Below are positions 10,183 to 53,685 of a stretch of DNA of 64,000 nucleotides, piece after piece (position 1 is the first letter of the stretch; each line of letters starts with the position of its first letter). The notes under the pieces were generated by a model, which saw nothing but the letters and a program-made list of their open reading frames with translations, ran no database searches and was not told where the DNA came from. The translations under genes and the position numbers were made by a program. Source of the DNA: Kiritimatiellia bacterium (GTDB lineage Bacteria; Verrucomicrobiota; Kiritimatiellia; RFP12; UBA1067); contig JAZSQE010000053.1 of the NCBI GenBank assembly GCA_045537795.1, forward strand, positions 11,805 through 75,804, written 5' to 3'.

Positions 10183-10838
10183 TTATCGCGGTAGAGAGAG
10201 GGATCGGGCGACATCCGGCACCGCCGCAAGCAGAAGTTTTGTGTATTCGGATTTCGGATTGCCGAACACTTCCGCCGGAACACCGGTTTCCACAAACTCG
10301 CCGCGACGCATTACACATACGTGGTCGCACACATTCTTCACCACCGCCAGATCGTGCGCTATGAGCAGAATAGCAAGACCCAATTCATGGCGCAGATCGC
10401 GAAGCAGGGTGAGAATACGGACCTGCACACTGACATCGAGCACGCTGACCGGTTCGTCCGCTATCAACGCTTCCGGTTCGCAGGCCAAGGCTCTGGCTAT
10501 GCTTACCCGCTGACACTGCCCCCCCCCGACATCTCACGCGGATACTGGTCCAGCACCGATTTGCTCAACCCCACCAGATCCATGAGCTCTTCAAGACTAC
10601 GGCGGCATTCCGCGCCCATTCTCCGCCGGATTGCGCACACCTCATTCACCGCTTGCCTCACGGTCTTGCGGGGATTGAGCGAACCGGCAGCATCCTGAAA
10701 CACCATCTGCACCGACCGCGCTCTCGCGACGGCATGATCATCCACCACCAGCGCCTCAACAACACCTGTTGGCGACCAGCAATACATTTGACGAGTGCGT
10801 TCCATTTTCTTGACTATGAAATTCACCTCGCGAACCAT
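10183..10838 (-). pseudogene. Oligopeptide/dipeptide-type ABC transporter ATP-binding protein (OppF/DppF-like), 5'-truncated and frameshifted
   Basis: Fragments [27 protein letters not shown] and [14 protein letters not shown]...LIAHDLAVV are typical of this family. There is no Walker A. The frame breaks in a C9 run (10519-10527), and the N-terminal end is replaced by AT-rich island sequence. Confidence 0.75.
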
Positions 10839-13132
10839 TTATGCACACGCTTTCCCATCCTATAGCACATCTTCTTCAGCATTACTTTAAAAGCATAAAA
10901 GTAACCATGAGGAGCTAAGACTTTAGATGTCGCAAAAATCAAAACATCATGAACATTAGCGACACCCAAAAACTTAATTCTGTCTTCAAATGTCAGTTGA
11001 TTAAATGTGCAGTCTTTTGCCAACGAGTGTCCTTCCGAGTTCAGACAGTTAAGATCAACCCCACGACCTTCATATCGTTTTTTATCAGCATCATCCAGCA
11101 AAACCCGACCCAATAATTTATGAAAGAAGCACCCATTTTCATCAACAACCCAACCCCTTTTCGAAAAATCAGAAATTATCCCCTCAAAGCTTCTAAGCCA
11201 AGTTACCGAATGTGTCATCACGGGGATAAAATCATTTAACATTGATTCGTCCATTTTCTTTACCGCATGCTTAAAGTCCTCCATAATACCATATTCAATA
11301 TCATAGTCATGTTGCGTCAGATATCGCCGCTTCGGCAAATACGAGCAGAAAACAGCATCACAACTATCAACCACATGATGTGCGACAACAAACATCAAAT
11401 GATTTAAATCAACTTCCTCTATCTTAGTCCGAAGCTCAAAAACTGCAATTTCTGGATCTTGGCTATTAAGCTGTCCCTGCTCTATCAATTCCGCATACCT
11501 ATCTCTACGATTTGCATCATCATTTTCAAAACGCTGTTTCAATGACTCCAACACGAGTCTTCGGGGAGAATCATAGTTCCATGATTCGGTTCCTGTGAGA
11601 TATCGAACTGCAGGTGTGATTGTCACCAAACACTGCCCTTTCCCTCGAACCATAGGATCCCATTCATTAATTTCCAACCCTGTATTCGCTATAAGGTACA
11701 ACGAGTGTAAACAATCACTCTTATATTGTAATTCAAGCACACCATACCATGTTGACGAATCCCCACAGGTTACACGTGTTTGTGTGACACATTTAACATC
11801 ATTTATCTTATAACGAAACTGCTTGCGATCTTCTTTCTCATGATATTCAGACTCAATCAAGAGTCGTGAAATTGGTTGTCGCTGATTCCACTGCAAATAC
11901 TGGCAAACTACCCCAGCTGGATTTTTATAAAACACATCTTGATTCACAATAAACTTCTTTGGATACCCAGATGACAAAACTGATACATGCTCATCAAAGC
12001 CACGAAGTGGTTCATAGGATATCCGTTCTCTAACTCCCATTTTCGACATTGACTCCACCTCTACCGTAATCGTTCTTCTCTGAATAGCCAACCTCGGCTC
12101 ATTATGAACAGGCCGTTCCTGAGATAATAATGTGGCACGAAGTGGCATACACCCTTCGCAAACATATTCATCAATGGAATATGAACGTGAAAGTGCCGAA
12201 AGCCACACAACCATTCCGTCATCAACAACATTTAATGGCATTCGTTTATAATGAGTCAGTTCATGATGTTGATAATAATGAGTCGCAATGGCAACATCAT
12301 ATTTTGGTTGTCTATCCTGTTCTCGTTGTAAAACAATCTTATTAGCATTCCCACTTCGGTCATCTTTTCCATATCGCAACCTTAAATGCAATTCATTTTC
12401 ATCGGAAGTTCCTACTATAAACAATTGAAGTCCTCGACATTCACGAACCTTTCGCATACCATCCAAAATCAATTCGGATAATTTTTGATCATTCGCTCCT
12501 ACAAAAAGGACTGACACCCAATCCCCATTAACACGATGCGTTGAGAACCATCTTGAAAATTTGTCGCTAATTCGTTTGGCGATTTCTTCCTTTATTAATG
12601 AATCAATGTTAGCATCTATACCTCTACCAGGAGTGCATTTCCCCATCCCAGACATCCTCCATCCATGGAGATCACCAAGGAACTCAACCGTATTCCATAA
12701 AATAAATGAATTCCCCAGTGCCTCTTTTAGCCCAATTTCAGCACTATCACTTATTTCCCAGGGCACACGTAAGGACAATGCTGCACACAACTTACTGTTA
12801 AACCACTTGTTCGGCCATCGGCCTAACATATCGGCCAATATGAAACGAAAATCATCTAATTTTCTATCCCACTCATATCCCGATGGATCAAAGGCTTCTG
12901 CCTTTTGTTTAACTTTCTCCACAAGTTTAATAATCGACACAAGCTGTTTACCAAAAATAACGACTCCATGTCGTCGCAAAAGTAGTAGAATAAGGTACAT
13001 TAATCCCAAAGAGCCTATCAATAATACTCCGCACTTCGCGAATAGCGAAGATAGTTGAATAATGGTAAGTGGAGTCTGCAATGCAGATACAACACTGGCC
13101 CAAAATAGAACTGCTTCTTTGTTGATTCTCAT
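10823..13132 (-). CDS. Hypothetical membrane-anchored protein (769 aa; 2 N-terminal TM helices, large soluble domain)
   Basis: Last gene of the island II operon. VSVLFVGANDQKLSELILDGMRKVRECRGLQLFIVGTSDE faintly resembles a GT-B Rossmann half, but this is not established. Confidence 0.5.
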   Translation of the reverse strand: MRINKEAVLFWASVVSALQTPLTIIQLSSLFAKCGVLLIGSLGLMYLILLLLRRHGVVIFGKQLVSIIKLVEKVKQKAEAFDPSGYEWDRKLDDFRFILADMLGRWPNKWFNSKLCAALSLRVPWEISDSAEIGLKEALGNSFILWNTVEFLGDLHGWRMSGMGKCTPGRGIDANIDSLIKEEIAKRISDKFSRWFSTHRVNGDWVSVLFVGANDQKLSELILDGMRKVRECRGLQLFIVGTSDENELHLRLRYGKDDRSGNANKIVLQREQDRQPKYDVAIATHYYQHHELTHYKRMPLNVVDDGMVVWLSALSRSYSIDEYVCEGCMPLRATLLSQERPVHNEPRLAIQRRTITVEVESMSKMGVRERISYEPLRGFDEHVSVLSSGYPKKFIVNQDVFYKNPAGVVCQYLQWNQRQPISRLLIESEYHEKEDRKQFRYKINDVKCVTQTRVTCGDSSTWYGVLELQYKSDCLHSLYLIANTGLEINEWDPMVRGKGQCLVTITPAVRYLTGTESWNYDSPRRLVLESLKQRFENDDANRRDRYAELIEQGQLNSQDPEIAVFELRTKIEEVDLNHLMFVVAHHVVDSCDAVFCSYLPKRRYLTQHDYDIEYGIMEDFKHAVKKMDESMLNDFIPVMTHSVTWLRSFEGIISDFSKRGWVVDENGCFFHKLLGRVLLDDADKKRYEGRGVDLNCLNSEGHSLAKDCTFNQLTFEDRIKFLGVANVHDVLIFATSKVLAPHGYFYAFKVMLKKMCYRMGKRVHKWFAR

Positions 13133-14347
13133 TTACTCTCCCATCAAGAACGTCAACACATGCTCCACTTCATGATACGCGCTTTTCCAACAGTTGGCTT
13201 TACATGCGATGTTGTCATCATTCGACAATACATATCCATCCGGCGAAAGCCCCTCGCGGATTCCGTGGCAAGCACGGGTACGATCTATATAATCGCAAGA
13301 GAACCACGCCGCAACGCCCTGTTTCAGCAATGGAATCAGCTCTGGATAATCATGCGCATAAAGATATATGGTTTGATCAATCAAGACATGCCGCCACCAC
13401 TGAAGATTCTGTTTCTGGAAAGTCGTGGGAGAATGGTCAAAATCAGTAAGCCAACCGATTCCGGGACGTGCAGCGGCTTTTACTATTTCCGGATAACCAG
13501 CTGTTACGGTCTCATACATCGTCGGCATTCCCCATGAGCAAAACAAGTCATTTGCCTTGTAGAGGATACCGTATGCCTTGGATGTATGACCTAAATCCGT
13601 ATGCTTCGCCTGCCAATCCGAACGATTTCCTTTCTCGTTCCAGAATATTCCATTTCCATAAAACTCATCGACCAAGAGTTTTACCCACTTCACAAGGAGA
13701 TTTTTCCGTTCAATCGTCAGTTCGTCAGACGGCGTCACGCGCAACGCAGGGATTAGAATGGCATTGAGAAAATCCAATACGGACACGATGTTCATTGTCT
13801 TGGTTTCAAAGCAAACCTCATTCTTCAAATCTGATGCAAGCGAATCCGTGTAAACATTCTCTCCTTTCAAATACGGACCAGCGTCAATAAAAGAAATGAA
13901 CGACCATATCTTATTGAAATATTCCCTATTGCCAGTCACCCGATACGCCATGACATACGGGAAAGCCGAATAGCATTGATCCTGTATTGAGATTGGCGTA
14001 TCTCTTGGCTTGCCGTCAAAGGAGAACGTTGAGAAATATCCCCCCAAAGGGTTCTCGTAGGCCTCTAACCTTTTCAGTCCAGACAAACCATACGACAACA
14101 GATCTTCTCTTCGAAGCATCAAATATGCAGCGAGATAACCATAAGTCTGCCGCCCATGCATACGGACATAAATTGGCTCGGAATAATCGGGCACTCCCGA
14201 TTGCGAAGCATACGTCGGGAACAATCCAATTGGATTCCCCAACATAGATGGCTGCATCCAGAACAGCAGAATATCGTTGGTGAGATGTTCTCTCATCAAC
14301 GGTTCTATCCATGCCTTAAATTCGTTCATCGGTGAATTGTTTTTCAT
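13133..14347 (-). CDS. AGE (N-acylglucosamine 2-epimerase)-like (alpha/alpha)6-barrel protein, cytoplasmic (404 aa)
   Basis: HTDLGHTSKAYGIL resembles the AGE HxEPGHxxE motif; YRVTGNREYFNKI resembles the LYxxTGDxxYL motif. No signal peptide. Assignment is tentative. Confidence 0.4.
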   Translation of the reverse strand: MKNNSPMNEFKAWIEPLMREHLTNDILLFWMQPSMLGNPIGLFPTYASQSGVPDYSEPIYVRMHGRQTYGYLAAYLMLRREDLLSYGLSGLKRLEAYENPLGGYFSTFSFDGKPRDTPISIQDQCYSAFPYVMAYRVTGNREYFNKIWSFISFIDAGPYLKGENVYTDSLASDLKNEVCFETKTMNIVSVLDFLNAILIPALRVTPSDELTIERKNLLVKWVKLLVDEFYGNGIFWNEKGNRSDWQAKHTDLGHTSKAYGILYKANDLFCSWGMPTMYETVTAGYPEIVKAAARPGIGWLTDFDHSPTTFQKQNLQWWRHVLIDQTIYLYAHDYPELIPLLKQGVAAWFSCDYIDRTRACHGIREGLSPDGYVLSNDDNIACKANCWKSAYHEVEHVLTFLMGE

Positions 14348-14400
14348 CTATTTCCTTTGCATGAATGTCATGAAGCTCTCGCCAAAGCATAGAGGAACCA

Positions 14401-15525
14401 CTATGAGTTCTTTCGACCTTCACATTCAACAAGTTTCTCCTCTACGCCCTTAAACCTCGCGGTAGATAAATCAAAAGAAAAAGTGACGAGTGGTTTCCCA
14501 TTCTCAAGACGGACAAATTTTCGCTTGCCCTTCTTTACTAGTTGTTTAAGCATCTCATCATTATACGTCTGTTTTGTTATGGCCTTATAGAGGTTCTTAA
14601 ACGTAGTAACATGCAAAATTTCATCATGGTCTTTTGCAAACATCTTGCCATCGCCAACAGAGAAGACTCGTTCCAATACTGCACGATCCATCTTTCCATC
14701 CTTGGCGAAATGAAGATCATTATACCGCGCAAAGAATATGTAAAAGAGATAATAACAAGAACCTTGTTTAGACAGTGCCGTCCCATATTCATCAATCGAT
14801 GTCGGAGCAAGGGGGACTTCTCGTTGATAGCAATCAAGTTTATCAAACTTGGCTTCATAGTGGCGTGGCACAGGGCTAAAAGAAACAAATGTGAATCTTG
14901 GTTCATCCTTGCCAGCCGACGAATGTTGGTCAGGCATTCTCAAAATAACCGGGACGTTCCCATCTGCATCAATCGGAACATAAAGAACTTGTAATATACA
15001 CTTGTCCTTTTTATTCTCATTTTTGAGTGGGACACACTCGAAACTAGACATGATACTTGCGTCAGCGAAAAACTGCTCAGCAGATAAATAGTTCCCATCC
15101 TGGGCTGCATGAATAACAACAGGATCCGATGAACTCAAGTTCTTGATGTCTATGTTATAACGACTACACAATAAGTTTTGAATACCTGGAGCAGCAATAT
15201 CTGAGCAATACTTGTAATCCACCTGGGTGGCCCTTTTTGCCGCGCTGTCTAACACATCTTTCTGTTTCCGTGCCATATAACGAGATATCGCATAAATAAC
15301 TAATGTTGACAGACCAACAATCCCCCCAACATATAGAATCAGCAACGAGAGCGAAATATGTCCTTGCCAATATGACTTTATTAATCTACAAGCCTCAAAC
15401 AAGAGGGCGAATATAGACACTAGATTTGCAAATCGAGAAAGCGATATGTCAAATTGCTTAACAGTCATAAGACTCTCCTTATTTTCTGTGCATGAAGTCG
15501 TAGAACAACGCGGCAAGGAAACCAA
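14401..15525 (-). CDS. Hypothetical protein with 2 N-terminal TM helices (about 355-374 aa; the start is probably the internal Met of MTVKQFD at 15468)
   Basis: ORF in the island II operon; the soluble C-terminal domain has no recognised motifs. Confidence 0.45.
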   Translation of the reverse strand: MVSLPRCSTTSCTENKESLMTVKQFDISLSRFANLVSIFALLFEACRLIKSYWQGHISLSLLILYVGGIVGLSTLVIYAISRYMARKQKDVLDSAAKRATQVDYKYCSDIAAPGIQNLLCSRYNIDIKNLSSSDPVVIHAAQDGNYLSAEQFFADASIMSSFECVPLKNENKKDKCILQVLYVPIDADGNVPVILRMPDQHSSAGKDEPRFTFVSFSPVPRHYEAKFDKLDCYQREVPLAPTSIDEYGTALSKQGSCYYLFYIFFARYNDLHFAKDGKMDRAVLERVFSVGDGKMFAKDHDEILHVTTFKNLYKAITKQTYNDEMLKQLVKKGKRKFVRLENGKPLVTFSFDLSTARFKGVEEKLVECEGRKNS

Positions 15526-17782
15526 TATGGATCAATGCCAATTGGCGCATCGCTTGAACCACAGTGGTTACTAACTGCACTGCCTCTTTAGGATCAAAGC
15601 CTTGCCCCCAAATCTTCGGCACCGTACCATTCCATGTACGCGATAGAAGTTTCTCAATGCCCATATCTGGCTGCGTAGAAAACAGTAATTCATACATCTT
15701 AGACAAAACAAAACTATATTCGGCCTTGGGATCAATTATGGCGTGATAATACCAAACAAAAACCCCAACAAACAAAGCAAAACTAAGACAGAAGTTAAGT
15801 TTGCCGCGTACAGCCCACTCGGGGAAAGCCAACAAATTACGCGGAACTGGGGACAACAATAATCGATGCATATACCTTGACTGGCGCGATAAAAAAGCAG
15901 CCTCTTCATTTCGACCGCGCGACCTCAAAAGTTCAGAAAGGGTACCACATATAGCCGACATTCCACTCTCAAACATCTCTTCTCTTACTGCGCCATTCGA
16001 CGACCGGCAAATCTGCCACAAGGAATTATGGAGATCCACCCACCGATCTTCCATGTCCAATCGCGCTCGGACGCCCGGAAACTCACATTCTGCCAACACT
16101 TCGCAATAATGGCGCAACCCCAACGCTTCAATGGACAATGCAGGCGTTTTGTGCCCAAGCAACTCGTAAGCACATGTGGACAACACCGCTGCACGAATGG
16201 CATCTTCTATACTTTTACCTCTATCCTTAATCGTACGAGCACGGTCAATCAAATCTGTCGCTACATCCAACGTCATACCATATGCAGAATGATTCGAATC
16301 AGGAACTTCTGTTCCTGTTATGGTCGGCATCATTCCTTTTAGCGCATTATGAAAGATATGCGAAATCATTTGAGCATTTAATTGCCCGTCGAAATGGCAA
16401 CCATTAGGTAATCCACATTGGTTTCGCAATCCAAATATTCCTCCGAGCGGCTTGCCAACAAGACACCAGTAACGTGTTTTGCTTGATTGAATCTGATGTT
16501 GCGGAAAGTGATTTGTGTACAGTTTTGGACAAAATCGCCACTGAGAACGAATTTTAAAAAATGTCTGAACACGAGAATGATGACCAAACAAAAACAACAT
16601 TCCCTTTACAATTATGTTACGACACAATCCAAATGCGCCAAAAATTAGGAACAACGATGGTATAAACATTATTGGCATGTAAATCAGAAGCCACACCAAA
16701 GCCCACACAATAAATGCGCATTTAACTATATTCCAGACCCAAACATCAGCTAATCCACCAGCGAAAAGGTTAAAAGCCTGCCGACGTGCCTTTTCAACCG
16801 CACTTTGGATAGGCTTCATCTTTGTTTGCCTAAGGTCTTTAACATCTGCTCCACGAAACCACGAATCCGCAGTAATGGATATTTGCGCTTTGCGACTTGA
16901 ATCAGGTGCGCCTTTATCATGTTTCCGAGCAATCTTCTCTTCTGAACCTGCCGCTGTCGCCAATACGCGCAAATTGGCACTCTTCAGTAAAGGCCAGACA
17001 TTATCACGCCCATCACCCAAGAGATGCGCCTTGTTCTGCCTTTGAGTCAAATCAGGAAATTCAATATATCCATCCTCAAAAACAATCAACGATGAATCGG
17101 AAGACACTGTTGCTCTCGCAAACGATGGCAACTTCGTCTTATCACTGACAGATAACACTTGTTCCGCCAATCGTGCCGTAGAAACGGGATACACTCGATA
17201 GCCAAAGCGAAACGCCGTATAGGCAGCTAACTCTGCGAAGTGCTTTTCCTCATCAATCGATACCGCAACATCATCTCGATTATAAGGGTAAGCGCTATTT
17301 GTTTTGTGGGTTCTAATTAATTTACTACGAACACCCATCCCATCAAATATTGGATTAAAACCACCTAATGCCAATTCCACTGCGAGTTTTACATGTTCCC
17401 TAGAAATCTGATCTTCTCCCTTAAACACTGGTACCCAAAGGACATCGGGGAATGCCAAAATCAAAAGTCCCTGCACAGATTGCAAAGATGGCATTTCACT
17501 AAGATCATTCCAAAGCCGTGCATCTAGAATCGCAACAAATCGATCAGAAGGATTGACATCCCCTATTGCCGCACCTAAAATCTCAGCAATTTCATGAAAC
17601 GATTCCCGAACATCCCCCATAAACCTTGTAGGTGTCAACGACAGCTGGGGAATGATTCTCTGTTCAATTGACACAGAAGGGATGCTCTCCTTCAAACAAT
17701 TATATTGAGCATCAATCCATTGCCGACACAGTTCATTAGTGCCGCATGATTCCCTATCTGCTATCACCCAGCAATGCACCAT
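15479..17782 (-). CDS. Hypothetical large membrane protein (767 aa; about 340-aa N-terminal soluble domain, central TM bundle, alpha-rich C-terminal domain)
   Basis: Long ORF in the island II operon. Hydrophobic segment VWVWNIVKCAFIVWALVWLLIYMPIMFIPSLFLIFGAFGL. Confidence 0.5.
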   Translation of the reverse strand: MVHCWVIADRESCGTNELCRQWIDAQYNCLKESIPSVSIEQRIIPQLSLTPTRFMGDVRESFHEIAEILGAAIGDVNPSDRFVAILDARLWNDLSEMPSLQSVQGLLILAFPDVLWVPVFKGEDQISREHVKLAVELALGGFNPIFDGMGVRSKLIRTHKTNSAYPYNRDDVAVSIDEEKHFAELAAYTAFRFGYRVYPVSTARLAEQVLSVSDKTKLPSFARATVSSDSSLIVFEDGYIEFPDLTQRQNKAHLLGDGRDNVWPLLKSANLRVLATAAGSEEKIARKHDKGAPDSSRKAQISITADSWFRGADVKDLRQTKMKPIQSAVEKARRQAFNLFAGGLADVWVWNIVKCAFIVWALVWLLIYMPIMFIPSLFLIFGAFGLCRNIIVKGMLFLFGHHSRVQTFFKIRSQWRFCPKLYTNHFPQHQIQSSKTRYWCLVGKPLGGIFGLRNQCGLPNGCHFDGQLNAQMISHIFHNALKGMMPTITGTEVPDSNHSAYGMTLDVATDLIDRARTIKDRGKSIEDAIRAAVLSTCAYELLGHKTPALSIEALGLRHYCEVLAECEFPGVRARLDMEDRWVDLHNSLWQICRSSNGAVREEMFESGMSAICGTLSELLRSRGRNEEAAFLSRQSRYMHRLLLSPVPRNLLAFPEWAVRGKLNFCLSFALFVGVFVWYYHAIIDPKAEYSFVLSKMYELLFSTQPDMGIEKLLSRTWNGTVPKIWGQGFDPKEAVQLVTTVVQAMRQLALIHIGFLAALFYDFMHRK

Positions 17783-17803
17783 TGCCTCACCTCAACTTTC
17801 TAC

Positions 17804-18799: not shown

Positions 18800-21700
18800 T
18801 GCTATTATTCCTTTCCGGTGATCCCGGCAGAATGCTCATAAGGGAATTCACCAAGTTCAGTTTTTCTGGATATCGTTTAAAGAGGAATGCCTCTATAGAG
18901 GAAAATGCCAACACCTTCTCGTTGTCCGGAATATTATCAGGACGACCACGACCTGTGGTCACTACGACAAAGCGACCATACCCGTGCCCGTCAGAATGTC
19001 GCAAATGATCAAGGATAACCTTGACATTCTTCTTGCTATGTCCTTTCCACCACTTGTCGATGATGCCCTGATGAATGACCACAAGATCAAAATCGAAATC
19101 TGTTTCATTAGAATGTTCAGATTTGAACAACGTACCATCCACATATTTCAGGCTCTTGAAGTCAAGGGAATCTGCCACGACTTTCGGCTTTTCCTGTGTA
19201 TCAACGACCGCAATGCGCATTGATGCATATGTCTTTTGTATCTCTTCGCCGTGATCGGCAACAAAAGCACGAACACGTTCATCAATAATTACGATTCGCA
19301 GCAAGCCATTTTCAGCCAGTCTCATCGCCCATTGCACGTCCTGACGCGATAAGTTCGCAAGTGCATTCAAATAAGTCTGAGAACCGCTAAGTGGTTCGCT
19401 GTACAGCATGGCACCATCCGTAGCGTGGCGATTATATGAAATAACAGCATCTTTACCATTTCCCCCATAGAAGATTTCCAGACCTAGATTACCAGTAAAG
19501 TCAAGTTTACCGCTCACATCAGATCCTACACCCTTATATTGTCGTGGCAAAGTTACTATACGCTCCTCATACTTTCTTAAGAATACATCACCTGTTGTAC
19601 GAGCGACATCTAAGGCTTCTGCCGCCCGTTTGATAATCAAAGACTCTACGGGTGTAGTGGCCATCGTATCCAATTCCTGCAATAACATAGAGTCCCTACC
19701 GCCTCTATCAATGGAAGATAGTTCATCAAGAAGCGACTTGGCAATAACTGGCGGATATTTCATGGTCTCTGTCGCCCGTTCAAGCCCTGCTTGATATGCA
19801 CAAACAAGCCGTTTCCACTTATCACATTCTTTTTCTTCGTGCACACATGGCAATGACGTCCAAAATAGACTAACTTTTTCGGCAATTCTCCCAAGGATAC
19901 TCTCTATCTTCAGTCGATGATTACCTGTGAACTTTTCTTGCACGGATTCAAACAATTTATCATTTTCATCCAAAGGATAAAGCGACAGAAGGAGGAGTGC
20001 CTTGCGCTGCGTCGGCGTCATTTTCAGACAGTCATCAACTATTGGCTCCAAGACAGAATGCAAACACTCACGAAAGAGCACCTTATAAATATCCCTATCA
20101 CTGACGAGACCTTTTTCGCATCCTTGGGTGTCATAGATATTCAATTTAATCGTCAATTCGCTATCTTCTACCCCTCGGCGACGTTTAAGATATTCCAGCC
20201 ATGCTCTATATACAACTGACACCAACTCATTGTGGTCAATATTTTTCAGCGATGCCCCTGAGATGTAAGGCGCAACCTTGTTTCCTTCACCTGTATAATC
20301 AACAAACAACGTACGGAACGGCAACTTCAACGCCTCGTCTGAAATCATCTTTTTGTCATGGTCAATGACAATAAACTCATAGTCGGACATCAAGCCAACG
20401 TCACCCTTTTTGTCATGAGTCCCGAAGATACGCGCATACGATTCCACTCCAAAACCATTTGTTTCTTTGAACAAATTCCATTTCGAGATGTCATCCGCTA
20501 CAATTAAAATACTTCTAGGGAGTTTAATCCAAAATCGGTATGCTAAACGTAATTCCTTATAATCCAGTTTGCCATTTTGCTCATTTCGTGGAATCCCAAC
20601 AGGGACAATAAGCGGATGTTTGCCCACTTCATCCGCAATTCCTCCTATCACGGATATCTCCGCCCGTCGAAGATATCCAGCAGAAATCTTCATCTCTGAC
20701 AAGCCCCAAGAGGCCTGCCGCAATCGTTTTGTTTCTGAATCAATAAACGGCTTCGCTAATTCAATTTCCTGACGATGATGCAAAGGAAGAGGAAGCCTAT
20801 GACCCAATGGGGCGTCATCACTTGCAACAGACACATCGCCACTCAACAAAGAACGGAAGGTCCCATCTCCTCTCAACGACTCCCAGTTCGCGCTAACATA
20901 ATCATAAAGAACCCTGTAGAACCACGGTAATGAATTTCGCTCGCCTTTTCCTCTTAAGAACTGTTCTATGGCGTATCGCCTGGAAATCTCCGTGCCGGAA
21001 GATTCCTTTGAAGTCTTTGGCAAAACCAATTCCCCATCCAAAGGTGAAGCAAATACAGAAACCAAATCTTCATACTTGTGGTCTTCGGGTAACTTGGCAT
21101 TCGCAAAGAACATTGGCCAGAAGGTTCCTGCAAACAACCTAGACATGTTATCCCCTATCGCAAAACAGACCATCCCTTCTTCCTGGCGTGTATCGAAATC
21201 AACATATATCTCTAAATTGCCCGCTGCTTCCCGTTCACCAGCGCTCTTCCCTGCCCATGAATGCTTCGCTGCATTACGCAAAATATTCTCAATGACATTG
21301 TAAAATGCTTGCTGCCCCAAAATTCCACCGGGGATGGACATGACCTCATCATTCTTCCAAATCACAGACTGCTCTGGGGCATGGAAAAATTCATATGCAT
21401 CAACGCAACGCTTGTTCGGAAGATTCTTTCGCGACCATCCCTCTGGCGGCACGTCGGGAACCTTCTCTCCATCTTTGTACCGCCTAATTCGCCGAACGAC
21501 AATCTTCACACAATTCTCCTGCAAATCACCAGACACCGTTCCTTTCCCTTGGTACTGGTAAGCATGCAACCCATCACTCTCCGCAATATGGTCCAGTAGA
21601 TGCCTCTGAGAATAGAAAGTCTTCATCACACTTCCAACAAAAGGAGTCGGAACAGACCAGTCTGGAGCTCCCATTGTTGCAGAAGCGATGTAGTCCATTC

Positions 21701-23633
21701 GATGCTGGATGTATTGATACAAAATCCGATCGTCAGGCATCGTTCCAACATTGTGCGATAATGCCGACAGTACATGACTACCAATATTGTGGGAACCATT
21801 GCGAGACATAATGGCGCCGATTGCAGACTTACTATTGGCAATTCTTAACGCCTCGCTCTTTCGCCCGTTAAAATATATTGATAGCAATTGCCTTGTCGCA
21901 GTAGAAAGTACCTGTATGATTGGAGAGGAAAGCCGCCTCCCCACAACTACCACCAACATGCCTGTATCATCATCCGCCACATAAGGCACACAATATATGT
22001 AATTATGCTTCTTCGCCACGGCAGCAATGAACGCGGTTCTTAGCCCCTCAAAGTCTTTTTGTCTCCAATCAATGCGAGAAAAGCGATTTTGAAAAATAAC
22101 TTCCCTCGTTTCAGTCACAGAAACCCCAATCGGTGTACATGAGTCCGAGACAAGCCATTCCGGAACTGTTACATGACGATTACGACAATCCAACCACAAC
22201 CTTTTAACCGTATTGTCAGGAAAATCTTCTGACGAAAGATTGATTTGCAATGCTGCGTTTGAGTGCCCGAAGCCTTTTACGAATGACTCCATAAAATCCA
22301 ACAAGCAATTATTTAAATAATTTGCATCATCATTATCATTTTCATCGATTCTATTCAACTTTTTTATAGCGCCATTTTCAAAAGAACAGAACACTGCCGC
22401 AACACTATCTTCCCCCGAATCAGGGCTTACCAACTTTCCGACATGAGAACTCGCATTGTGAAACGTATTTGCAACGTCACTCAGACCATCATCATCATCC
22501 AACTCTTTCACAAAATCAGCTGAAATGCAATTTATATCATGTAGAAACCTTGCAATCTCAGTTAATCCAACGGATTGAGATGTCACGTCAACGATATTTT
22601 GAATCCACTTATCTGCTTTAGAATCATAAGACATTTTCCAAAGAGATAGTGGCATGGCCATGTTCCCACTATCAGCAATATTCAACACTCCAAATGGAGA
22701 TACATAGGTTCTTACCAAATGCCAGTCGAGTTTATTTGCCTTAATGAGATATCCCAAATATCCAAAGATAGTCTTTATAAGATTACGGTAAAATAATGCG
22801 ACATCGGACAATCCTATTCCTGTATAAAATATTGCCTTATCTCTAAACGGGAACTCCTTCAAGCCTTTTAGATGAGGCACCAAGCCTTCAATCCCTTCCC
22901 CAATTGACAACGCTACATTCGTAAATACATACCCATTATAATTATGTTTAGCAAGAAACTCAATAAGAGACTTATGTCCGTGATCCGCATATCCAGAAAT
23001 GAATATGGCGTCTGTATGGAGCAATTGCGCCATATCTTCATCAGTAAGTTTGCCATTAAATTCCCATTTTTTGAACAGAGCAACCTTGTAAAGACCATAT
23101 TGCCTGCAAAGCAGACTCTCAAATATATTGCAATGCTCCAATGGAGCCTTTGCATCTAGCGCCGCCAACCCAACCGTTGGGACATCACCTTTATTGGCAA
23201 TCGTAATTCTCTTTTTAAACAACCAGTTAAACAATATAAACGTCTCATACTCTTGTGTAAACCAGAACTTTAAATGCTTATTTTTTTCACCACGATCAAC
23301 ATCAATACCTGTTATAACGGTGGCTGTGCCGACAATTTCATTTGCTGGAGGGATCTTGAATGCATCAAAAAGTTTAACAGAGGCATCATCTCCAAAAACC
23401 AAAACAAACTTCGCCCCACCACAAACCAACTCATTATATGCAGATAAAACATTATCGTTAGTTATATCTTTAGGAGTTTTCCATTTGTCTGCCTCTTTTG
23501 AAAAAATGGGGACGAGACCACCACCACTCACCTCATTTGCTAAATCATTGATGAAATCAGCAACATTCCCGTTGGCGATTATGATTTCCCTCATATAAGA
23601 TGGCAACAAGAATCCTATCTGCGTTTCTGTCAT
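18792..23633 (-). CDS. Giant (1613 aa) cytoplasmic multidomain protein: LivK-like type I binding fold, HisKA-like H-box, GHKL (histidine-kinase-type) ATPase, receiver-like segments
   Basis: No TM helix. aa 60-240 resemble the LivK fold (SAYNELVCGGAKFVLVFGDDASV...; HTDAIFISGYADHGHKSLIEFLAKHNYNG). aa ~610-625 SHNIGSHVLSAL resembles a HisKA H-box (SHELRTPLTAI). aa ~775-792 FYNVIENILRNAAKHS is a GHKL N-box. aa ~824-834 FAIGDNMSRLF is a G1 box. aa ~1040-1095 SILIVADD...YEFIVIDHD and aa ~1446-1525 RIVIIDE...DLVVIHQGI are receiver-like. Confidence 0.6.
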   Translation of the reverse strand: MTETQIGFLLPSYMREIIIANGNVADFINDLANEVSGGGLVPIFSKEADKWKTPKDITNDNVLSAYNELVCGGAKFVLVFGDDASVKLFDAFKIPPANEIVGTATVITGIDVDRGEKNKHLKFWFTQEYETFILFNWLFKKRITIANKGDVPTVGLAALDAKAPLEHCNIFESLLCRQYGLYKVALFKKWEFNGKLTDEDMAQLLHTDAIFISGYADHGHKSLIEFLAKHNYNGYVFTNVALSIGEGIEGLVPHLKGLKEFPFRDKAIFYTGIGLSDVALFYRNLIKTIFGYLGYLIKANKLDWHLVRTYVSPFGVLNIADSGNMAMPLSLWKMSYDSKADKWIQNIVDVTSQSVGLTEIARFLHDINCISADFVKELDDDDGLSDVANTFHNASSHVGKLVSPDSGEDSVAAVFCSFENGAIKKLNRIDENDNDDANYLNNCLLDFMESFVKGFGHSNAALQINLSSEDFPDNTVKRLWLDCRNRHVTVPEWLVSDSCTPIGVSVTETREVIFQNRFSRIDWRQKDFEGLRTAFIAAVAKKHNYIYCVPYVADDDTGMLVVVVGRRLSSPIIQVLSTATRQLLSIYFNGRKSEALRIANSKSAIGAIMSRNGSHNIGSHVLSALSHNVGTMPDDRILYQYIQHRMDYIASATMGAPDWSVPTPFVGSVMKTFYSQRHLLDHIAESDGLHAYQYQGKGTVSGDLQENCVKIVVRRIRRYKDGEKVPDVPPEGWSRKNLPNKRCVDAYEFFHAPEQSVIWKNDEVMSIPGGILGQQAFYNVIENILRNAAKHSWAGKSAGEREAAGNLEIYVDFDTRQEEGMVCFAIGDNMSRLFAGTFWPMFFANAKLPEDHKYEDLVSVFASPLDGELVLPKTSKESSGTEISRRYAIEQFLRGKGERNSLPWFYRVLYDYVSANWESLRGDGTFRSLLSGDVSVASDDAPLGHRLPLPLHHRQEIELAKPFIDSETKRLRQASWGLSEMKISAGYLRRAEISVIGGIADEVGKHPLIVPVGIPRNEQNGKLDYKELRLAYRFWIKLPRSILIVADDISKWNLFKETNGFGVESYARIFGTHDKKGDVGLMSDYEFIVIDHDKKMISDEALKLPFRTLFVDYTGEGNKVAPYISGASLKNIDHNELVSVVYRAWLEYLKRRRGVEDSELTIKLNIYDTQGCEKGLVSDRDIYKVLFRECLHSVLEPIVDDCLKMTPTQRKALLLLSLYPLDENDKLFESVQEKFTGNHRLKIESILGRIAEKVSLFWTSLPCVHEEKECDKWKRLVCAYQAGLERATETMKYPPVIAKSLLDELSSIDRGGRDSMLLQELDTMATTPVESLIIKRAAEALDVARTTGDVFLRKYEERIVTLPRQYKGVGSDVSGKLDFTGNLGLEIFYGGNGKDAVISYNRHATDGAMLYSEPLSGSQTYLNALANLSRQDVQWAMRLAENGLLRIVIIDERVRAFVADHGEEIQKTYASMRIAVVDTQEKPKVVADSLDFKSLKYVDGTLFKSEHSNETDFDFDLVVIHQGIIDKWWKGHSKKNVKVILDHLRHSDGHGYGRFVVVTTGRGRPDNIPDNEKVLAFSSIEAFLFKRYPEKLNLVNSLMSILPGSPERNNSND

Positions 23634-23705
23634 TTTGTATACTCCACTGTCTTCAATTCATGGTACCATGTTCAGCTGTGCGTATCTGCCTTAGATAGAA
23701 AAAGA

Positions 23706-24815
23706 CTATTTTCTCCGAATATATATCTTTGTAATCAACTCTCCAGATTGGTCAAACTTGGCCCTCCCGATGACACTTGAAACTTCGCCCATAGCTATCA
23801 ATGAATCTTCAATATCGACACCGTCCTTAGCGGACAAATCAATGGCACGGCACAGCACATCAACAGAAAAATACGCAAAAGCAGAATGTGCATTAGGCTG
23901 ACCAGTAAATCTGGTTTCAAATGAACGCACAAATTGCAAATAATATGAGGACTCTTTATCATCTGGGTCAAATGCTGTAGAACAGTAATATACTCCCTTC
24001 GCACCATCAGAAATTTTTTCAGCGTATCCAGGAATTGTCACAACCTCATCAGTTAAAATCGCGCCCGAATACCTTGCTTCCTTAAGTTGATTAAATACCG
24101 TTATATAACCAGGGCCAAATCCAAAAACAAAAACTGAATCTGGATGGGCAGTCAAAATCTTACTAATCTGACCACGCACATCCTGAGCGCCAATTTCAAA
24201 TGTCTCTGATAAAATATCAACACCATTTTTTTGCGCAAATGCACGAACAGTTTTTTCTGCCTCATCGCCAAAGTTGTTATTTATAGCCAAGACAGCAAAC
24301 TTTGACGATCCCAAATCCGAGTGCGCAAATTCGGCCAGTCGCATACAAGAATCTCGAGTCGTAGTCCAAGCACGAAAATAATGAGGCGATAACGATGGTA
24401 TGTTTTCGGCAGCAGCAGAGAGTGCTATTGTCGGACAAGGATGCGCATTAACGGTAGCTGCAAGATTATAGCATTGCACATCACCAAATACGATACATGC
24501 AGTAATATTATCACGAATCAACTTTTGATACGCAGAAATCGTTGCCGCCGACGTCGACTTCCCATCTTCAAACAAGATTTTAATTTTTTTCTGTTCCAAA
24601 GTACGAGTTCTATTAGCTTCGTCTTCTGCTATCTTCATCGCGCACATCATTGGCGCTGCAAGATCTGACGATACTCCTGTCAAAGGGAGAATTGCTCCAA
24701 TTCGAATAACAGTATCATCATTCCCTCGCTGAAAGTTCTTAAATACCCCAATAACTACAATAACCGCAACCACAATTGCACTAATGATTATCAACAACTT
24801 TTTATTCTTCTTCAT
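23706..24815 (-). CDS. Membrane-anchored LivJ/LivK-like (Peripla_BP_6 type I) ligand-binding protein, 369 aa
   Basis: N-terminal TM anchor (LLIIISAIVVAVIVVIGVF). Blocks IRIGAILPLTGVSSDLA, ACIVFGDVQCYN, SKFAVLAINNNFGDEAEKTVRAFAQKNGVDI and PDSVFVFGFGPGYITVFNQLKEA align with LivK. First gene of the island II operon; AT-rich. Confidence 0.7.
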   Translation of the reverse strand: MKKNKKLLIIISAIVVAVIVVIGVFKNFQRGNDDTVIRIGAILPLTGVSSDLAAPMMCAMKIAEDEANRTRTLEQKKIKILFEDGKSTSAATISAYQKLIRDNITACIVFGDVQCYNLAATVNAHPCPTIALSAAAENIPSLSPHYFRAWTTTRDSCMRLAEFAHSDLGSSKFAVLAINNNFGDEAEKTVRAFAQKNGVDILSETFEIGAQDVRGQISKILTAHPDSVFVFGFGPGYITVFNQLKEARYSGAILTDEVVTIPGYAEKISDGAKGVYYCSTAFDPDDKESSYYLQFVRSFETRFTGQPNAHSAFAYFSVDVLCRAIDLSAKDGVDIEDSLIAMGEVSSVIGRAKFDQSGELITKIYIRRK

Positions 24816-24866
24816 TTCTTTATTCCTTTCTTATTCTAAATTACTTCAATCGCCTTTGCCCACTAC

Positions 24867-25103
24867 TTACGGGCTTTGACAAAATCCTGTGAGACCTCCA
24901 TGTCTGCTTTCGCAGTACGAAGCAAACTGGAGCATGCAGTTCGCGTTTCCCAATTGCGCACCACGCATGAAGCACTCGATGGCTTTCTGTACGTCGCCGA
25001 CATTCTCGTTGGCATCGTCAAACAGGTATCGATCGCATACCTTCGGCCCATTCAGCATCTCCATCGGCTTTAGGCGTGAAGTTCTTAACCCAGTTCGTAT
25101 CAC
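24867..25103 (-). pseudogene. Sel1-repeat protein fragment (78 aa ORF)
   Basis: AIECFMRGAQLGNANCMLQFASYCESRHGG is Sel1/TPR-like; it is too short to be a full gene and sits at the island junction. Confidence 0.3.
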
Positions 25104-25588
25104 CCATTAAAGTCCTCCTTGCCCTTGCTTGCGGTGCCGCGCTTGGGCGTAATTTCCGACTCCATGAATGTTTCATCAACCACGACCTCCAACTTATCTA
25201 CCGCTTTCTTGATTTTCGGAATTATATGATGCCCCCAAGGTACTTTCATCAAATCAATCATGCTGTTATCTTCCACAACTTGTGGAAGATAACGGTATAG
25301 TTCGTAAAACCGCAACGCATACCGTATGTTCGATGGCGAAAGTCCAATGGGATTGGGAATGTCAAGGCAAAGGTCGTTGCTGAGATTCTCGAAGAAATGC
25401 GCATTCCGCTGCTTGCCGGGGTACATTGCCGCAATGTCTCGTCCAAGATCCCAATAGAACTCCAGCATTGCAGAGTTGACTGCTACCGCCGCCTTTATCT
25501 GCGTAGCGCGATAGCGAACCTTGAGTTCTGCAATCCACTTGCGGTACTCCTTTGCCGAGGATAAATCTATATTACTGCGCCGTTTCAT
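25100..25588 (-). pseudogene. YhcG/DUF1016 (PDDEXK nuclease family) N-terminal fragment; the C-terminal nuclease domain is missing
   Basis: EYRKWIAELKVRYRATQIKAAVAVNSAMLEFYWDLGRDI and KVPWGHHIIPKIK match the YhcG N-domain (the IPWGHNILLL block). The ORF stops after 162 aa. Confidence 0.5.
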
Positions 25589-25598
25589 ATTGGTAATT

Positions 25599-25748
25599 AT
25601 ACCATTTCCTATTTACGTCCACCATTCTCTCTAAACATTAATAAAAATTCCACAACTTGTGGAAGATTTACCACCCCGATCTGTAGCTGCCTATAATACG
25701 CCTTTAAGTCCCTGATCCAAGCGTGATATGCCAGATCATTTACCTTTA
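25599..25748 (-). CDS. Small ORF (49 aa, MAELKVNDLAYHAWIRDLKAYYRQLQIGVVNLPQVVEFLLMF...) of doubtful reality
   Basis: Shares the LPQVVE-encoding palindrome with the YhcG fragment; it may be a degraded duplicate. Confidence 0.15.
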
Positions 25749-30519: not shown

Positions 30520-30552
30520 TTTTACATTTCAAATCATTTGGTCGGTTCAACC

Positions 30553-30694
30553 GAACGAGCAAGTCCGCGTGGTTACGCGATCTTTATATCTGTCCGCTTA
30601 GGGGGTGGCGAGAGCTCCTTTCAAGATCGCCGCATTCCTTCGCTTGACGCCAAGTATTATAGCAAAATTATATTGTTTTGTGTCGCCACCTTCT
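30553..30694 (+). repeat. 142-bp repeat copy B
   Basis: Aligns to 9871..10012 with 4 mismatches; lies 33 bp upstream of the livH ATG and abuts the hcp fragment. Confidence 0.85.
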
Positions 30695-30903
30695 CTTTTG
30701 CGCTGAAACTGAAGGAAGCTTTGGGGCTTGCCGACATCAATGAGCTGCCCGTTTCCTACAACATCGCCTGGTACGAACCAAAAGCGATCATCGTGCTCTT
30801 AGCGCTGCTGCATCTCGGCGTCAAGAACATCCGCTTAGGTCCAACACTACCCGCGTTCCTTTCGCCAAACGTCACGCCGACCGTAAAACATCGATGCCAT
30901 TAA
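30695..30903 (+). pseudogene. hcp: 3'-terminal fragment (about 69 codons) of a hybrid-cluster protein / hydroxylamine reductase gene
   Basis: [55 protein letters not shown] matches the Hcp C-terminus. Upstream of 30695 it is replaced by repeat copy B. Confidence 0.6.
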
Positions 30904-53523: not shown

Positions 53524-53555
53524 TCGGGAGATTTCGAAAGTTGCAAAATACCCCC

Positions 53556-53585: not shown

Positions 53586-53602
53586 ATGCGCCAACACGAC
53601 GT

Positions 53603-53677: not shown

Positions 53678-53685
53678 ATAAAAAA

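What the first reader, a model, noticed from the sequence alone, without database searches (positions are those of the whole stretch)
10823..25600. AT-rich 14.8-kb island carrying a 7-gene operon of unknown function, inserted into an ABC-ATPase gene: candidate undescribed sensor-kinase-like membrane system
The stretch 10823-25600 is visibly AT-rich (about 40% GC) against about 60% GC flanks. Its left end replaces the N-terminal part of an OppF/DppF-like gene (the remnant at 10183-10838 lacks Walker A). Its right end is littered with gene remnants (Sel1 and YhcG fragments).

It contains seven tightly packed co-directional genes with small gaps or overlaps. They are, in order: a membrane-anchored LivK-like binding protein; a 1613-aa PBP-like/HisKA-like/GHKL-ATPase/REC-like giant; a 331-aa protein with a C-terminal 2-TM anchor; a 767-aa membrane protein; a 374-aa protein with an N-terminal 2-TM anchor; an AGE-like (alpha/alpha)6 protein; and a 769-aa protein with an N-terminal 2-TM anchor.

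I cannot match this gene set to any described transport, two-component or defense system. No integrase, transposase or flanking tRNA explains its mobility. The combination of a giant cytoplasmic kinase-like ATPase with two LivK-fold ligand-binding modules and five unknown membrane or enzyme partners looks like a self-contained signalling/effector module acquired horizontally.
Basis: partly seen in the sequence, partly recalled or inferred. Interest (0 to 1): 0.8.

Follow-up and report, generated by a model that had tools for sequence, protein, structure and literature searches.

The report
Transporter-linked giant sensor kinase cassette, truncated
The AT-rich stretch is a swapped-in, partly deleted copy of a widespread but undescribed bacterial signalling system, in which an amino-acid-type ABC importer is coupled to a giant, very divergent histidine-kinase-like protein and to variable membrane partners.

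Summary
Seven tightly packed minus-strand genes (10823-24815) lie in DNA of 40-45% GC, against about 60% in the host core.

- a cytoplasmic LivK-type binding domain (hhalign 98%);
- a possibly receiver-like C-terminal domain.

The boundaries and the "self-contained island" reading are wrong:
- The unit includes the LivH/M/G/F transporter at 25771-30562. In 57 related loci with enough upstream DNA, 46 carry an ABC ATPase gene and 42 a Liv-type binding protein.
- The left end is a deletion joint at 10709/10710. It fuses the first 42 codons of a receiver + TCAD9 kinase-like gene to an Opp-type ATPase pseudogene. At least three system genes are lost.
- The kinase core family is large: 2232 clusters at 50% identity. 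It has no Pfam, NCBIfam or PADLOC model, and I found no paper on it.
- Close relatives keep the transporter genes but carry a different downstream cassette, so this is a cassette-exchange site. No integrase was found.

The mechanism (import-coupled sensing with a membrane, possibly channel-like, output) is inferred, not shown.

The parts
29627..30562 (-). LivH-type permease, part of the resident transporter
   Evidence: Pfam BPD_transp_2, E 2e-21. 95% aa identity to Kiritimatiellia locus L005. GC 0.55.
28761..29885 (-). LivM-type permease
   Evidence: Pfam BPD_transp_2, E 9e-41. 98% aa identity to L005.
27965..28780 (-). LivG-type ABC ATPase
   Evidence: Pfam ABC_tran, E 7e-36. 72-87% aa identity to L005, L008 and L012.
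26481..27968 (-). AlbA_2/Schlafen + HATPase_c_4 protein lying between LivG and LivF
   Evidence: Pfam SLFN_AlbA_2 1.3e-14 and HATPase_c_4 1.3e-6. Same position in L005 (73% aa). A C-terminal fragment sits just before LivF in L001.
25771..26499 (-). LivF-type ABC ATPase
   Evidence: Pfam ABC_tran, E 7e-30. An ABC ATPase directly precedes the binding protein and giant in L001 and L002.
25100..25588 (-). DUF1016_N (YhcG-type) gene remnant at a syntenic position
   Evidence: Pfam DUF1016_N 2.4e-15. Longer ORFs of the same cluster lie between the ABC genes and the binding-protein gene in L008 and L011. 91% aa identity to the remnant in L085.
24867..25103 (-). Sel1-like ORF fragment; right-hand recombination zone
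   Evidence: Translation; the Sel1 assignment is by eye. Window 24790-25118 is 80% nt identical to L008 just upstream of its binding-protein gene.
23706..24815 (-). Membrane-anchored LivK-type solute-binding protein; first gene of the low-GC cassette
   Evidence: Pfam Peripla_BP_6, E 1e-42. One N-terminal hydrophobic segment. 75% aa identity to L001 but only 27% to L005.
18792..23633 (-). 1613-aa cytoplasmic giant: PBP1-like sensor domain, DHp-like helices, histidine-kinase CA domain, middle region and a possibly receiver-like C-terminal domain
22614..23456 (-). Giant aa 60-340: cytoplasmic type-1 periplasmic-binding-protein fold
   Evidence: hhalign against the profile of the loci's Liv-type binding proteins: probability 98%, E 1.5e-13. 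This N-domain is shared only with P0002 and weakly with P0108.
20484..22001 (-). Giant aa 545-1050: atypical histidine-kinase core
18819..19316 (-). Giant aa 1440-1605: conserved C-terminal domain, possibly receiver-like
17804..18799 (-). 331-aa protein with C-terminal membrane segments; partner of the 767-aa protein
   Evidence: Homologues follow the giant in L001, L083, L084 and L085. Fused to the 767-aa homologue in L085 (1019 aa); P0124, P0129 and P0137 have lengths that suggest the same fusion.
15479..17782 (-). 767-aa membrane protein: cytoplasmic flavodoxin/receiver-like domains, membrane hairpin, helical domain and a possible channel-pore-like C-terminus
14401..15468 (-). 355-aa protein (374 aa from the upstream TTG) with an N-terminal membrane anchor
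   Evidence: Called as 355 aa in other assemblies. Present in L086 and L087 (this stretch is about 99.5% nt identical) and at 33% aa identity in L085.
13133..14347 (-). 404-aa protein weakly like AGE/cellobiose 2-epimerases; optional insert module
   Evidence: PDB 6f04 E 4e-5 and NCBIfam AGE E 1e-3, both over aa 15-150 only. Absent from L086 and L087; present in L085 (89% aa) and L089.
10823..13132 (-). 769-aa protein with an N-terminal membrane anchor; optional insert module, function unknown
   Evidence: No family hit. 98.6% nt identity to L088 and 23% aa identity to the L085 counterpart. hhalign finds no relation to the other downstream proteins.
10710..10838 (-). First 42 codons of the receiver + TCAD9 kinase-like gene, truncated
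   Evidence: The remnant translates 'MVREVNFIVKKMERTRQMYCWSPTGVVEALVVDDHAVARARS'. It differs from the N-terminus of the intact 672-aa TCAD9 protein of L088 at one residue (R3 for H3); the last 22 residues match L086 exactly. Nucleotide identity to L088 stops exactly at 10710.
10183..10709 (-). Opp/Dpp-type ABC ATPase pseudogene: 5'-truncated and frameshifted, fused to the remnant above
   Evidence: Translation continues 'VQMVFQDAAGSLNP...'. Walker B, H-loop and oligo_HPY (E 2.8e-4) are in a second frame. GC 0.57.

Best explanation
The locus is one copy of a widespread, so far unnamed signalling system that is tied to a binding-protein-dependent ABC importer.

**Proposed working (inferred)**
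1. The membrane-anchored LivK-type binding protein captures an external small ligand.
2. LivH/M/G/F import it.
3. The giant cytoplasmic protein reads the ligand, or the transporter's activity, through its own internal LivK-fold domain. This switches its very divergent histidine-kinase core.
4. The signal passes to partner proteins encoded downstream. In this subfamily these are the membrane pair 331 aa + 767 aa and a receiver + TCAD9 kinase-like protein. The 767-aa protein has cytoplasmic receiver-like domains and a possible cation-channel-like pore.

**This copy**
- The low-GC part (binding protein through the 769-aa gene) is an exchangeable cassette. It replaced a different cassette behind the resident, higher-GC transporter genes of a Kiritimatiellia-like host.
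- A later deletion at 10709/10710 removed the receiver-TCAD9 gene and at least two more genes. The copy is therefore incomplete and may be partly or wholly non-functional.

**Shown versus inferred**
- Shown: the gene content, folds, synteny, cassette swap and deletion.
- Inferred: the ligand, any phosphotransfer, the channel activity and the biological role.
For: **Linkage to an ABC importer**
- ABC ATPase, Peripla_BP_6 protein and giant occur in that order in L001 and L002.
- Of 57 GTDB loci with at least 5 kb upstream, 46 have an ABC ATPase, 42 a Liv-type binding protein and 38 Liv-type permeases. Five have an Opp-type importer instead.

**Kinase nature of the giant**
- H-box-like, N-box-like and G2-like residues are invariant in 54 sequences.

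**Internal sensor domain**
- hhalign of the N-terminal domain against Liv-type binding proteins: probability 98%.

**Two-component context in relatives**
- Neighbours include stand-alone receivers, NtrC-type activators, receiver + adenosine deaminase, and receiver + TCAD9/APH-like proteins.
- The receiver-TCAD9 proteins of L005, L008, L011 and L012 keep a canonical acceptor Asp.

**Membrane partners**
- The 331-aa and 767-aa proteins follow the giant in L001 and L083-L087, and they are fused in L085.

**Cassette swap**
- Against L005, LivH/M are 95-98% identical (89% at nucleotide level), while the binding protein and giant are 27-33% identical.
- L085 keeps remnants of the window-type LivH, LivF and DUF1016 genes next to a different, complete cassette.
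- GC steps from 0.54-0.60 in the transporter genes to 0.40-0.45 in the cassette.

**Deletion**
- L088 is 98.6% identical down to window position 10710, then continues with intact TCAD9, 819-aa and 73-aa genes.
Against: - No experiment exists for any family member.
- Pfam HisKA and HATPase_c models do not match the giant, and a PDB profile search found nothing.
- The H-box region of the model has low confidence (pLDDT below 50 at model residues 62-87).
- No canonical receiver is encoded in the window.
- In the closest lineage (L085-L087) the TCAD9 protein has Gly at the acceptor position, so classical His-to-Asp transfer may not operate there.
- Only 20 of 51 complete loci show a recognisable receiver protein.
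- Whether transcription runs from LivH through the cassette is unknown. The promoter/terminator scan found 46 promoter-like sites against 33.9 ± 6.3 in shuffles and no excess of terminators, which localises nothing.
Confidence: 0.55

Rival explanations
1. It is an anti-phage or other conflict (abortive-infection-type) system. The giant kinase senses an infection-related cue and triggers toxic effectors, here the possible channel protein of 767 aa and elsewhere adenosine deaminase or TCAD9 kinase-like proteins. The transporter acts as a regulator or scaffold.
For: - The downstream cargo is hypervariable and mutually unrelated.
- The cassette is swapped between close relatives and has low GC.
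- The family is scattered across many bacterial phyla and archaea.
- Relatives carry receiver + adenosine deaminase and TCAD9 proteins, a domain named from conflict systems.
- An AlbA_2/Schlafen gene and a DUF1016-family gene sit inside the locus.
- Some relatives carry an N-terminal DNA-methylase or SAM-methyltransferase fusion.
Against: - PADLOC gives no hit for any of the seven proteins.
- No relative was found in 2.9 million viral contigs or in plasmids.
- To my knowledge, no described defence system is built on an importer with an extracellular binding protein.
- Neighbouring genes in relatives are housekeeping genes such as FolD and FtsH.
Confidence: 0.22
2. It is an ordinary nutrient-uptake operon. 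A Liv-type amino-acid or amide importer is regulated by its own atypical two-component sensor. The downstream genes are unrelated metabolic or membrane genes that merely sit nearby.
For: - A complete LivHMGF plus LivK-type gene set is present.
- NtrC-type sigma-54 activators and stand-alone receivers occur in many loci.
- The locus sits at a fixed chromosomal site with housekeeping neighbours.
- A weakly AGE-like enzyme gene is present.
Against: - The binding protein diverges together with the giant (27% identity) while the permeases stay at 95-98%. A conserved nutrient specificity would not predict this.
- The 331/767 pair and the TCAD9 proteins keep their order after the giant across loci, and 331 and 767 occur fused.
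- Effector-type receiver fusions such as adenosine deaminase are not expected in uptake regulation.
Confidence: 0.15
3. One reading: a self-contained, complete seven-gene island that integrated into, and thereby disrupted, an OppF/DppF-like gene.
For: - The compositional step is real and the seven ORFs are intact.
- A truncated Opp-type ATPase abuts the last gene.
Against: - The 129 nt between the 769-aa gene's stop region and the ATPase remnant are the 5' end of a further system gene that is intact in L088.
- The transporter upstream is part of the conserved unit.
- No integrase was found.
Confidence: 0.05

Closest known systems
Classical two-component systems and hybrid histidine kinases (HisKA/DHp + HATPase_c CA domain, receiver partners)
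   Same: - A long helical hairpin carries an invariant His-containing motif.
- N-box-like and G2-like residues are invariant.
- Receiver proteins are encoded nearby in many relatives.
   Different: - No Pfam HisKA or HATPase_c match.
- The H-box reads SHNxGSH rather than the usual HExxxP type.
- About 130 residues are inserted between the G1-like and G2-like regions.
- The C-terminal, possibly receiver-like domain appears to carry an invariant His where the acceptor Asp should be.
- The protein is soluble and giant, with swappable N-terminal domains (PBP1-like, SAM methyltransferase, DNA methylase).
Liv/Bra (HAAT-family) branched-chain amino-acid / urea-type ABC importers
   Same: LivH, LivM, LivG, LivF and a Peripla_BP_6 binding protein are all present and recognised by Pfam and NCBIfam.
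   Different: - The binding protein scores far below the equivalog cut-offs (31 bits against 477), so the substrate is unknown.
- It belongs compositionally and phylogenetically to the kinase cassette rather than to the permease genes.
- An AlbA_2 gene and pseudogene remnants interrupt the operon.
Transporter-coupled sensing (BceAB-BceS) and import-dependent cytoplasmic signal receptors (Opp + RRNPP quorum sensing)
   Different: - BceAB is an exporter-type transporter with a membrane kinase.
- RRNPP receptors are TPR proteins, not kinases.
- No peptide precursor gene was identified here.
- The resemblance is functional analogy only.
Hailong HalA and other ligand-gated membrane effectors of defence systems
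   Different: No sequence similarity, no HalB-like nucleotidyltransferase and no PADLOC hit. The channel assignment is tentative.
Ternary/NTP-dependent conflict systems of Kaur et al. 2020 (source of the TCAD9 domain; PMC7159879)
   Same: The partner gene that is truncated here encodes a TCAD9/APH-like kinase-fold domain. The downstream cargo is diverse and variable.
   Different: No vWA, MoxR, STAND or GTPase core was found. [quoted passage not shown]

Membership tests
Histidine protein kinase superfamily | Bergerat-fold CA domain of the histidine-kinase type with N-box and G-box residues | tested here: met
Histidine protein kinase superfamily | DHp helical hairpin carrying the phospho-accepting His | tested here: inconclusive
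   The model has helices at residues 26-82 and 89-110, with invariant H615 and H620 in the first. pLDDT is below 50 at model residues 62-87. Autophosphorylation cannot be tested here.
Histidine protein kinase superfamily | Match to the curated sequence models (Pfam HisKA / HATPase_c) | tested here: not met
   No Pfam or NCBIfam hit at E <= 0.01-0.1. PDB profile search found nothing.
Two-component system (kinase + cognate receiver with acceptor Asp) | A receiver domain with a conserved acceptor Asp encoded with the kinase | tested here: not met
   - In the window the receiver-TCAD9 gene is cut after 42 codons.
- Its intact orthologues in L085-L087 have Gly at the acceptor position.
- The giant's own C-terminal domain appears to have an invariant His there.
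- Relatives in L005, L008, L011, L012 and L026 do have canonical receivers.
HAAT-family (Liv-type) ABC importer | Two BPD_transp_2 permeases, two ABC_tran ATPases and a Peripla_BP_6 binding protein | tested here: met
   Pfam hits for all five components.
HAAT-family (Liv-type) ABC importer | Branched-chain amino-acid or urea substrate (equivalog-level match of the binding protein) | tested here: not met
   NCBIfam PRK15404 scores 31 bits against a cut-off of 477. The urea binding-protein models score 23-25 bits against about 493.
Known anti-phage defence systems (PADLOC-DB 2.0) | A match of any component to a defence-system model | tested here: not met
   No hit for any of the seven proteins at E <= 0.1.
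Integrative genomic island | Integrase or transposase, tRNA or attachment site, flanking direct repeats | tested here: not met
   - The only tRNA is at 53.6 kb.
- No integrase or transposase domain appeared in the larger ORFs of 1-34 kb.
- The right joint lies within sequence shared with relatives, and the left joint is a deletion.
- Flanking repeats were not searched.
Tetrameric cation channel (2TM-P-loop pore) for the 767-aa protein | M1 - pore helix - filter - M2 architecture with a recognisable sequence signature | tested here: inconclusive
- KtrB is the only PDB sequence hit, E 0.17.
- No Pfam ion-channel hit even at E <= 10.
AGE / cellobiose 2-epimerase (alpha/alpha)6 enzymes for the 404-aa protein | Full-length match including the catalytic His residues | tested here: inconclusive
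   Only aa 15-150 match (6f04 E 4e-5; NCBIfam 18 bits against a cut-off of 600). The catalytic residues were not examined.

The most novel reading that the evidence does not exclude
This is a previously unrecognised class of import-triggered signalling or conflict system, spread across many bacterial phyla and some archaea. A binding-protein-dependent ABC importer feeds an external, strain-specific cue to a giant atypical histidine kinase. The kinase then gates membrane channel-like or enzymatic effectors such as a TCAD9 kinase or an adenosine deaminase. The binding-protein + kinase + effector cassette is exchanged between strains like a pherotype or immunity locus.
Probability: 0.3. Interest if true: 0.85.

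Novelty: new variant of a known kind. Interest (0 to 1): 0.62.

Why it matters
- The giant kinase core defines a large protein family: 2232 clusters at 50% identity, 308 of them at E <= 1e-30. It has no Pfam, NCBIfam or PADLOC model, and I found no paper on it. Yet it keeps a strikingly constant partnership with ABC importers from Bacteroidales to Asgard archaea.
- If the coupling is functional, it would be a new way for cells to turn solute import into a kinase signal. The exchangeable sensor/effector cassettes hint at strain-level recognition or defence in gut and rumen PVC bacteria and Bacteroidales.
- The family is a good target for a curated domain model and for experiments.
- For this particular window the finding is tempered. 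The copy is truncated and has lost its receiver-TCAD9 partner.

Tried and rejected
**Searches that found nothing**
- Pfam, NCBIfam and PADLOC on the seven proteins gave only the Peripla_BP_6 hit and a weak AGE hit.
- The first whole-protein homologue search returned only three proteins, because the candidate list was swamped. An alignment of the conserved core was needed.
- PDB profile search of the kinase core found nothing.
- tblastn of the core against plasmids, and a scan of viral contigs, found no relative.
- Literature searches found no description of the system. One search was badly worded and wasted.

**Comparisons that were not significant**
- hhalign among the downstream large proteins found no relation. 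The proteins compared were the 769-aa and 767-aa proteins, the 'c5' and 'G2' families, the L086 819-aa and L083 989-aa proteins, and receiver-TCAD9.
- hhalign of the 767-aa family and of the giant's C-terminal domain against receiver domains was not significant.
- Pfam on the 767-aa C-termini at E <= 10 gave no ion-channel family.
- The promoter/terminator scan gave no usable signal.

**Ideas rejected**
- A characterised exopolysaccharide locus: no glycosyltransferase, Wzx/Wzy or similar domain appeared in any Pfam scan.
- A classical integrative island: no integrase or nearby tRNA.

**Technical**
It was redone with 54 sequences.

Full report
**1. Checking the observation**

The window is compositionally mosaic. 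The host core from about 34 kb onward is 58-62% GC. The stretch 10.8-25 kb is 39-46% GC. Further low-GC patches lie at 1.4-8.2 kb and 31.0-32.1 kb.

Per-gene values:

| Genes | GC | GC3 |
|---|---|---|
| Seven cassette genes | 0.40-0.45 | 0.33-0.50 |
| LivH/M/G/F | 0.54-0.60 | 0.58-0.70 |
| Core genes beyond 34 kb | 0.59-0.61 | 0.74-0.82 |

The seven minus-strand ORFs exist as described, with gaps or overlaps of at most 72 nt. Only the first one, a Peripla_BP_6 protein (E 1e-42), matches any Pfam, NCBIfam or PADLOC model. The 404-aa protein gives a weak AGE hit.

No integrase or transposase was found in the ORFs scanned. The only tRNA is at 53.6 kb.

**2. The unit is larger on the right**

Directly upstream lie five genes and two fragments:
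- LivH (29627-30562), LivM (28761-29885) and LivG (27965-28780);
- an AlbA_2/Schlafen gene (26481-27968);
- LivF (25771-26499);
- a DUF1016_N fragment and a Sel1-like fragment.

The two metagenomic relatives found first both show the order ABC ATPase, Peripla_BP_6 protein, giant, a protein of about 330 aa, then a protein of 325 aa or more (cut by the contig end in L001) or 700 aa.

Searching one genome per GTDB species with the conserved kinase motifs gave 93 relatives, of which 80 loci were kept. They come from Lentisphaerae, Kiritimatiellia, Calditrichia, Bacteroidales, Akkermansia, Acidobacteria, Chloroflexi, Deltaproteobacteria and several archaea.

With my own ORF calling and clustering, 57 loci have at least 5 kb upstream. 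Of these, 46 carry an ABC ATPase, 42 a Liv-type binding protein and 38 Liv permeases. Five carry an Opp-type importer with a radical-SAM/SPASM enzyme instead. The importer therefore belongs to the system.

**3. What the giant is**

Alignment of 28 and then 54 family members shows a variable N-terminus and a conserved core, aa 545-1605. Invariant residues include:
- M609 and R611-H620, read as an H-box ('R-N-G-S-H-N-I-G-S-H');
- E782, N783, R786, N787, A789, K790 and H791, read as an N-box;
- W976, G977, E980, S984 and G986, read as a G2 box;
- D1451-E1452-R1453, H1521-Q-G, D1526-K1527 and G1561-R-G in the C-terminal domain.

The N-terminal domain (aa 65-340) matches the profile of the loci's Liv-type binding proteins at 98% probability, E 1.5e-13. 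Relatives instead carry SAM-methyltransferase or DNA-methylase domains there.

However, the C-terminal, possibly receiver-like domain seems to carry an invariant His where a receiver has its acceptor Asp. I read this from the model's secondary structure, and hhalign against receivers is not significant.

phmmer of the core against 1.84 billion cluster representatives finds 2232 proteins at E <= 1e-3, 1080 at <= 1e-10 and 308 at <= 1e-30. None of those listed carries a name or a core Pfam domain.

**4. Partners**

*The 331-aa and 767-aa proteins.* They follow the giant in L001 and L083-L087. They are fused in L085, and the lengths of several database proteins suggest the same fusion.

The 767-aa family extends to Calditrichia, Acidobacteria and Chloroflexi loci, with strongly conserved motifs. 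Its model (pLDDT 81) shows four parts:
- N-terminal alpha/beta domains;
- a membrane hairpin;
- a helical domain;
- a C-terminal helix / short helices / helix unit.

*Receiver-containing neighbours in other lineages*:
- stand-alone receivers;
- NtrC-type activators;
- receiver + adenosine deaminase proteins;
- receiver + TCAD9/APH-like kinase-fold proteins.

*Variable cargo.* The large downstream proteins are mutually unrelated by hhalign.

**5. The left end is a deletion**

Contigs L086 and L087 are 99.4-99.5% identical to window 14351-19659. After the 355-aa gene they continue with a 660-aa receiver + TCAD9 gene instead of the 404-aa and 769-aa genes.

L088 is 98.6% identical to window 10710-13176. 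There the 769-aa gene is followed by an intact 672-aa TCAD9 gene, an 819-aa gene and a 73-aa gene.

In the window, identity stops exactly at 10710. ORF 10503-10838 reads 'MVREVNFIVKKMERTRQMYCWSPTGVVEALVVDDHAVARARS', then switches to 'VQMVFQDAAGSLNP...'. The first part matches the TCAD9 protein's N-terminus at all but one residue. The second part is an Opp-type ATPase from its Q-loop onward, and it is further frameshifted.

So a deletion fused two truncated genes and removed at least three system genes. The 404-aa + 769-aa pair is an optional module. It is present in L085, L088 and L089 and absent in L086 and L087.

**6. Origin**

Window 27977-30496 (LivH/M/G) is 89% nucleotide-identical to Kiritimatiellia MAG L005. 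LivH and LivM are 95% and 98% identical at protein level, but LivG/LivF drop to 71-72% and the binding protein and giant to 27-33%.

The low-GC part is closest to L001 and L083-L085, at 53-75% protein identity. L085 retains remnants of the window-type LivH, LivF and DUF1016 genes (95%, 97% and 91% identity). These sit beside a different, complete cassette that has its own transporter.

This is a hot spot where sensor/effector cassettes are exchanged behind a resident transporter. It is not a classical integrase-driven island.

**7. Mechanism and rivals**

*Best reading (0.55): import-coupled sensing.* The external binding protein and the importer deliver a ligand. The giant's internal PBP1 domain reads it, and the atypical kinase core signals to the 331/767 membrane pair and to receiver-type partners. 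In this window the output arm is truncated.

*Rivals:*
- **A conflict or defence system (0.22).** Variable cargo, the deaminase and TCAD9 effectors, the AlbA_2 and DUF1016 genes, the HalA resemblance and the patchy phylogeny all favour it. The lack of PADLOC, viral or plasmid hits argues against it. So does the use of an importer with an extracellular binding protein.
- **Plain regulation of nutrient uptake (0.15).**

**8. Novelty**

No curated family or paper was found. I class it as a new variant of a known kind: two-component-like signalling coupled to an ABC importer. I give about 0.3 probability that it is a distinct, undescribed class of import-triggered signalling or conflict system.

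The family as a whole is of considerable interest. Interest in this particular copy is reduced by its truncation.

Noticed in passing
window 26481-27968 (-): An AlbA_2/Schlafen + HATPase_c_4 gene sits between LivG and LivF. It overlaps both by a few bases. It is kept at the same place in L005 (73% aa), and a fragment sits before LivF in L001. It may be a regulator belonging to the PVC versions of the system.
   Followed up: partly
L085, L086, L087 (receiver-TCAD9 proteins) versus L005, L008, L011, L012: The receiver domain of the TCAD9 partner has a canonical acceptor Asp ('VLLDL') in four Kiritimatiellia loci. In the lineage closest to the window it has Gly ('FVLLGLRF'), suggesting a pseudo-receiver there.
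   Followed up: partly
P0024, P0027, P0028, P0030, P0063, P0076, P0083, P0101 (relatives of the giant): In place of the PBP1-like N-terminal domain, some family members carry SAM-methyltransferase domains (PF13847, PF13489, PF08241). Others carry a DNA methylase domain (PF01555).
   Followed up: no
L034, L035, L038, L061, L064: These loci are a variant of the system. An Opp-type importer (SBP_bac_5, BPD_transp_1) and a radical-SAM/SPASM enzyme precede the kinase, and a receiver-containing protein follows. This hints at a modified-peptide signal.
   Followed up: partly
L026 15650-19081; also L016 and L082: A downstream protein of up to 1143 aa combines a receiver-like region with an adenosine deaminase domain (PF00962, E 3e-41).
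   Followed up: no
Bacteroidales loci such as L073 9041-18234: About 35 loci, mostly Bacteroidales, share a very regular layout: two permeases, two ATPases, binding protein, kinase of about 1100-1300 aa, a protein of about 300 aa, a 550-800-aa paralogue of the kinase's C-terminal half, then a 600-900-aa protein. None of the last four has a Pfam hit.
   Followed up: partly
window 3622-5981 (-): Three tandem Peptidase_M48 genes (191, 284 and 309 aa) lie in another AT-rich patch (GC 0.40-0.48), with several unannotated ORFs at 1385-3543 and 6281-8185.
   Followed up: no
window 30418-30903 (+) and 31044-32075 (-): More gene debris lies upstream of LivH. One piece is a C-terminal fragment of a prismane/hybrid-cluster protein. 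The other is a 343-aa ORF with only a partial ABC_tran domain, in a 44% GC patch.
   Followed up: no
window 13133-14347 (-): The 404-aa AGE-like protein is unusually conserved compared with its neighbours. It is 89% identical in L085, where the giant is only 53% identical. Its 90%-identity cluster has 45 members, including a Victivallales MAG protein.
   Followed up: partly
window 53603-53677 (+): tRNA-Asn (GTT) lies inside the coordinates of two long minus-strand ORFs (53398-54717 and 53748-54653). Those ORFs are therefore probably spurious.
   Followed up: no
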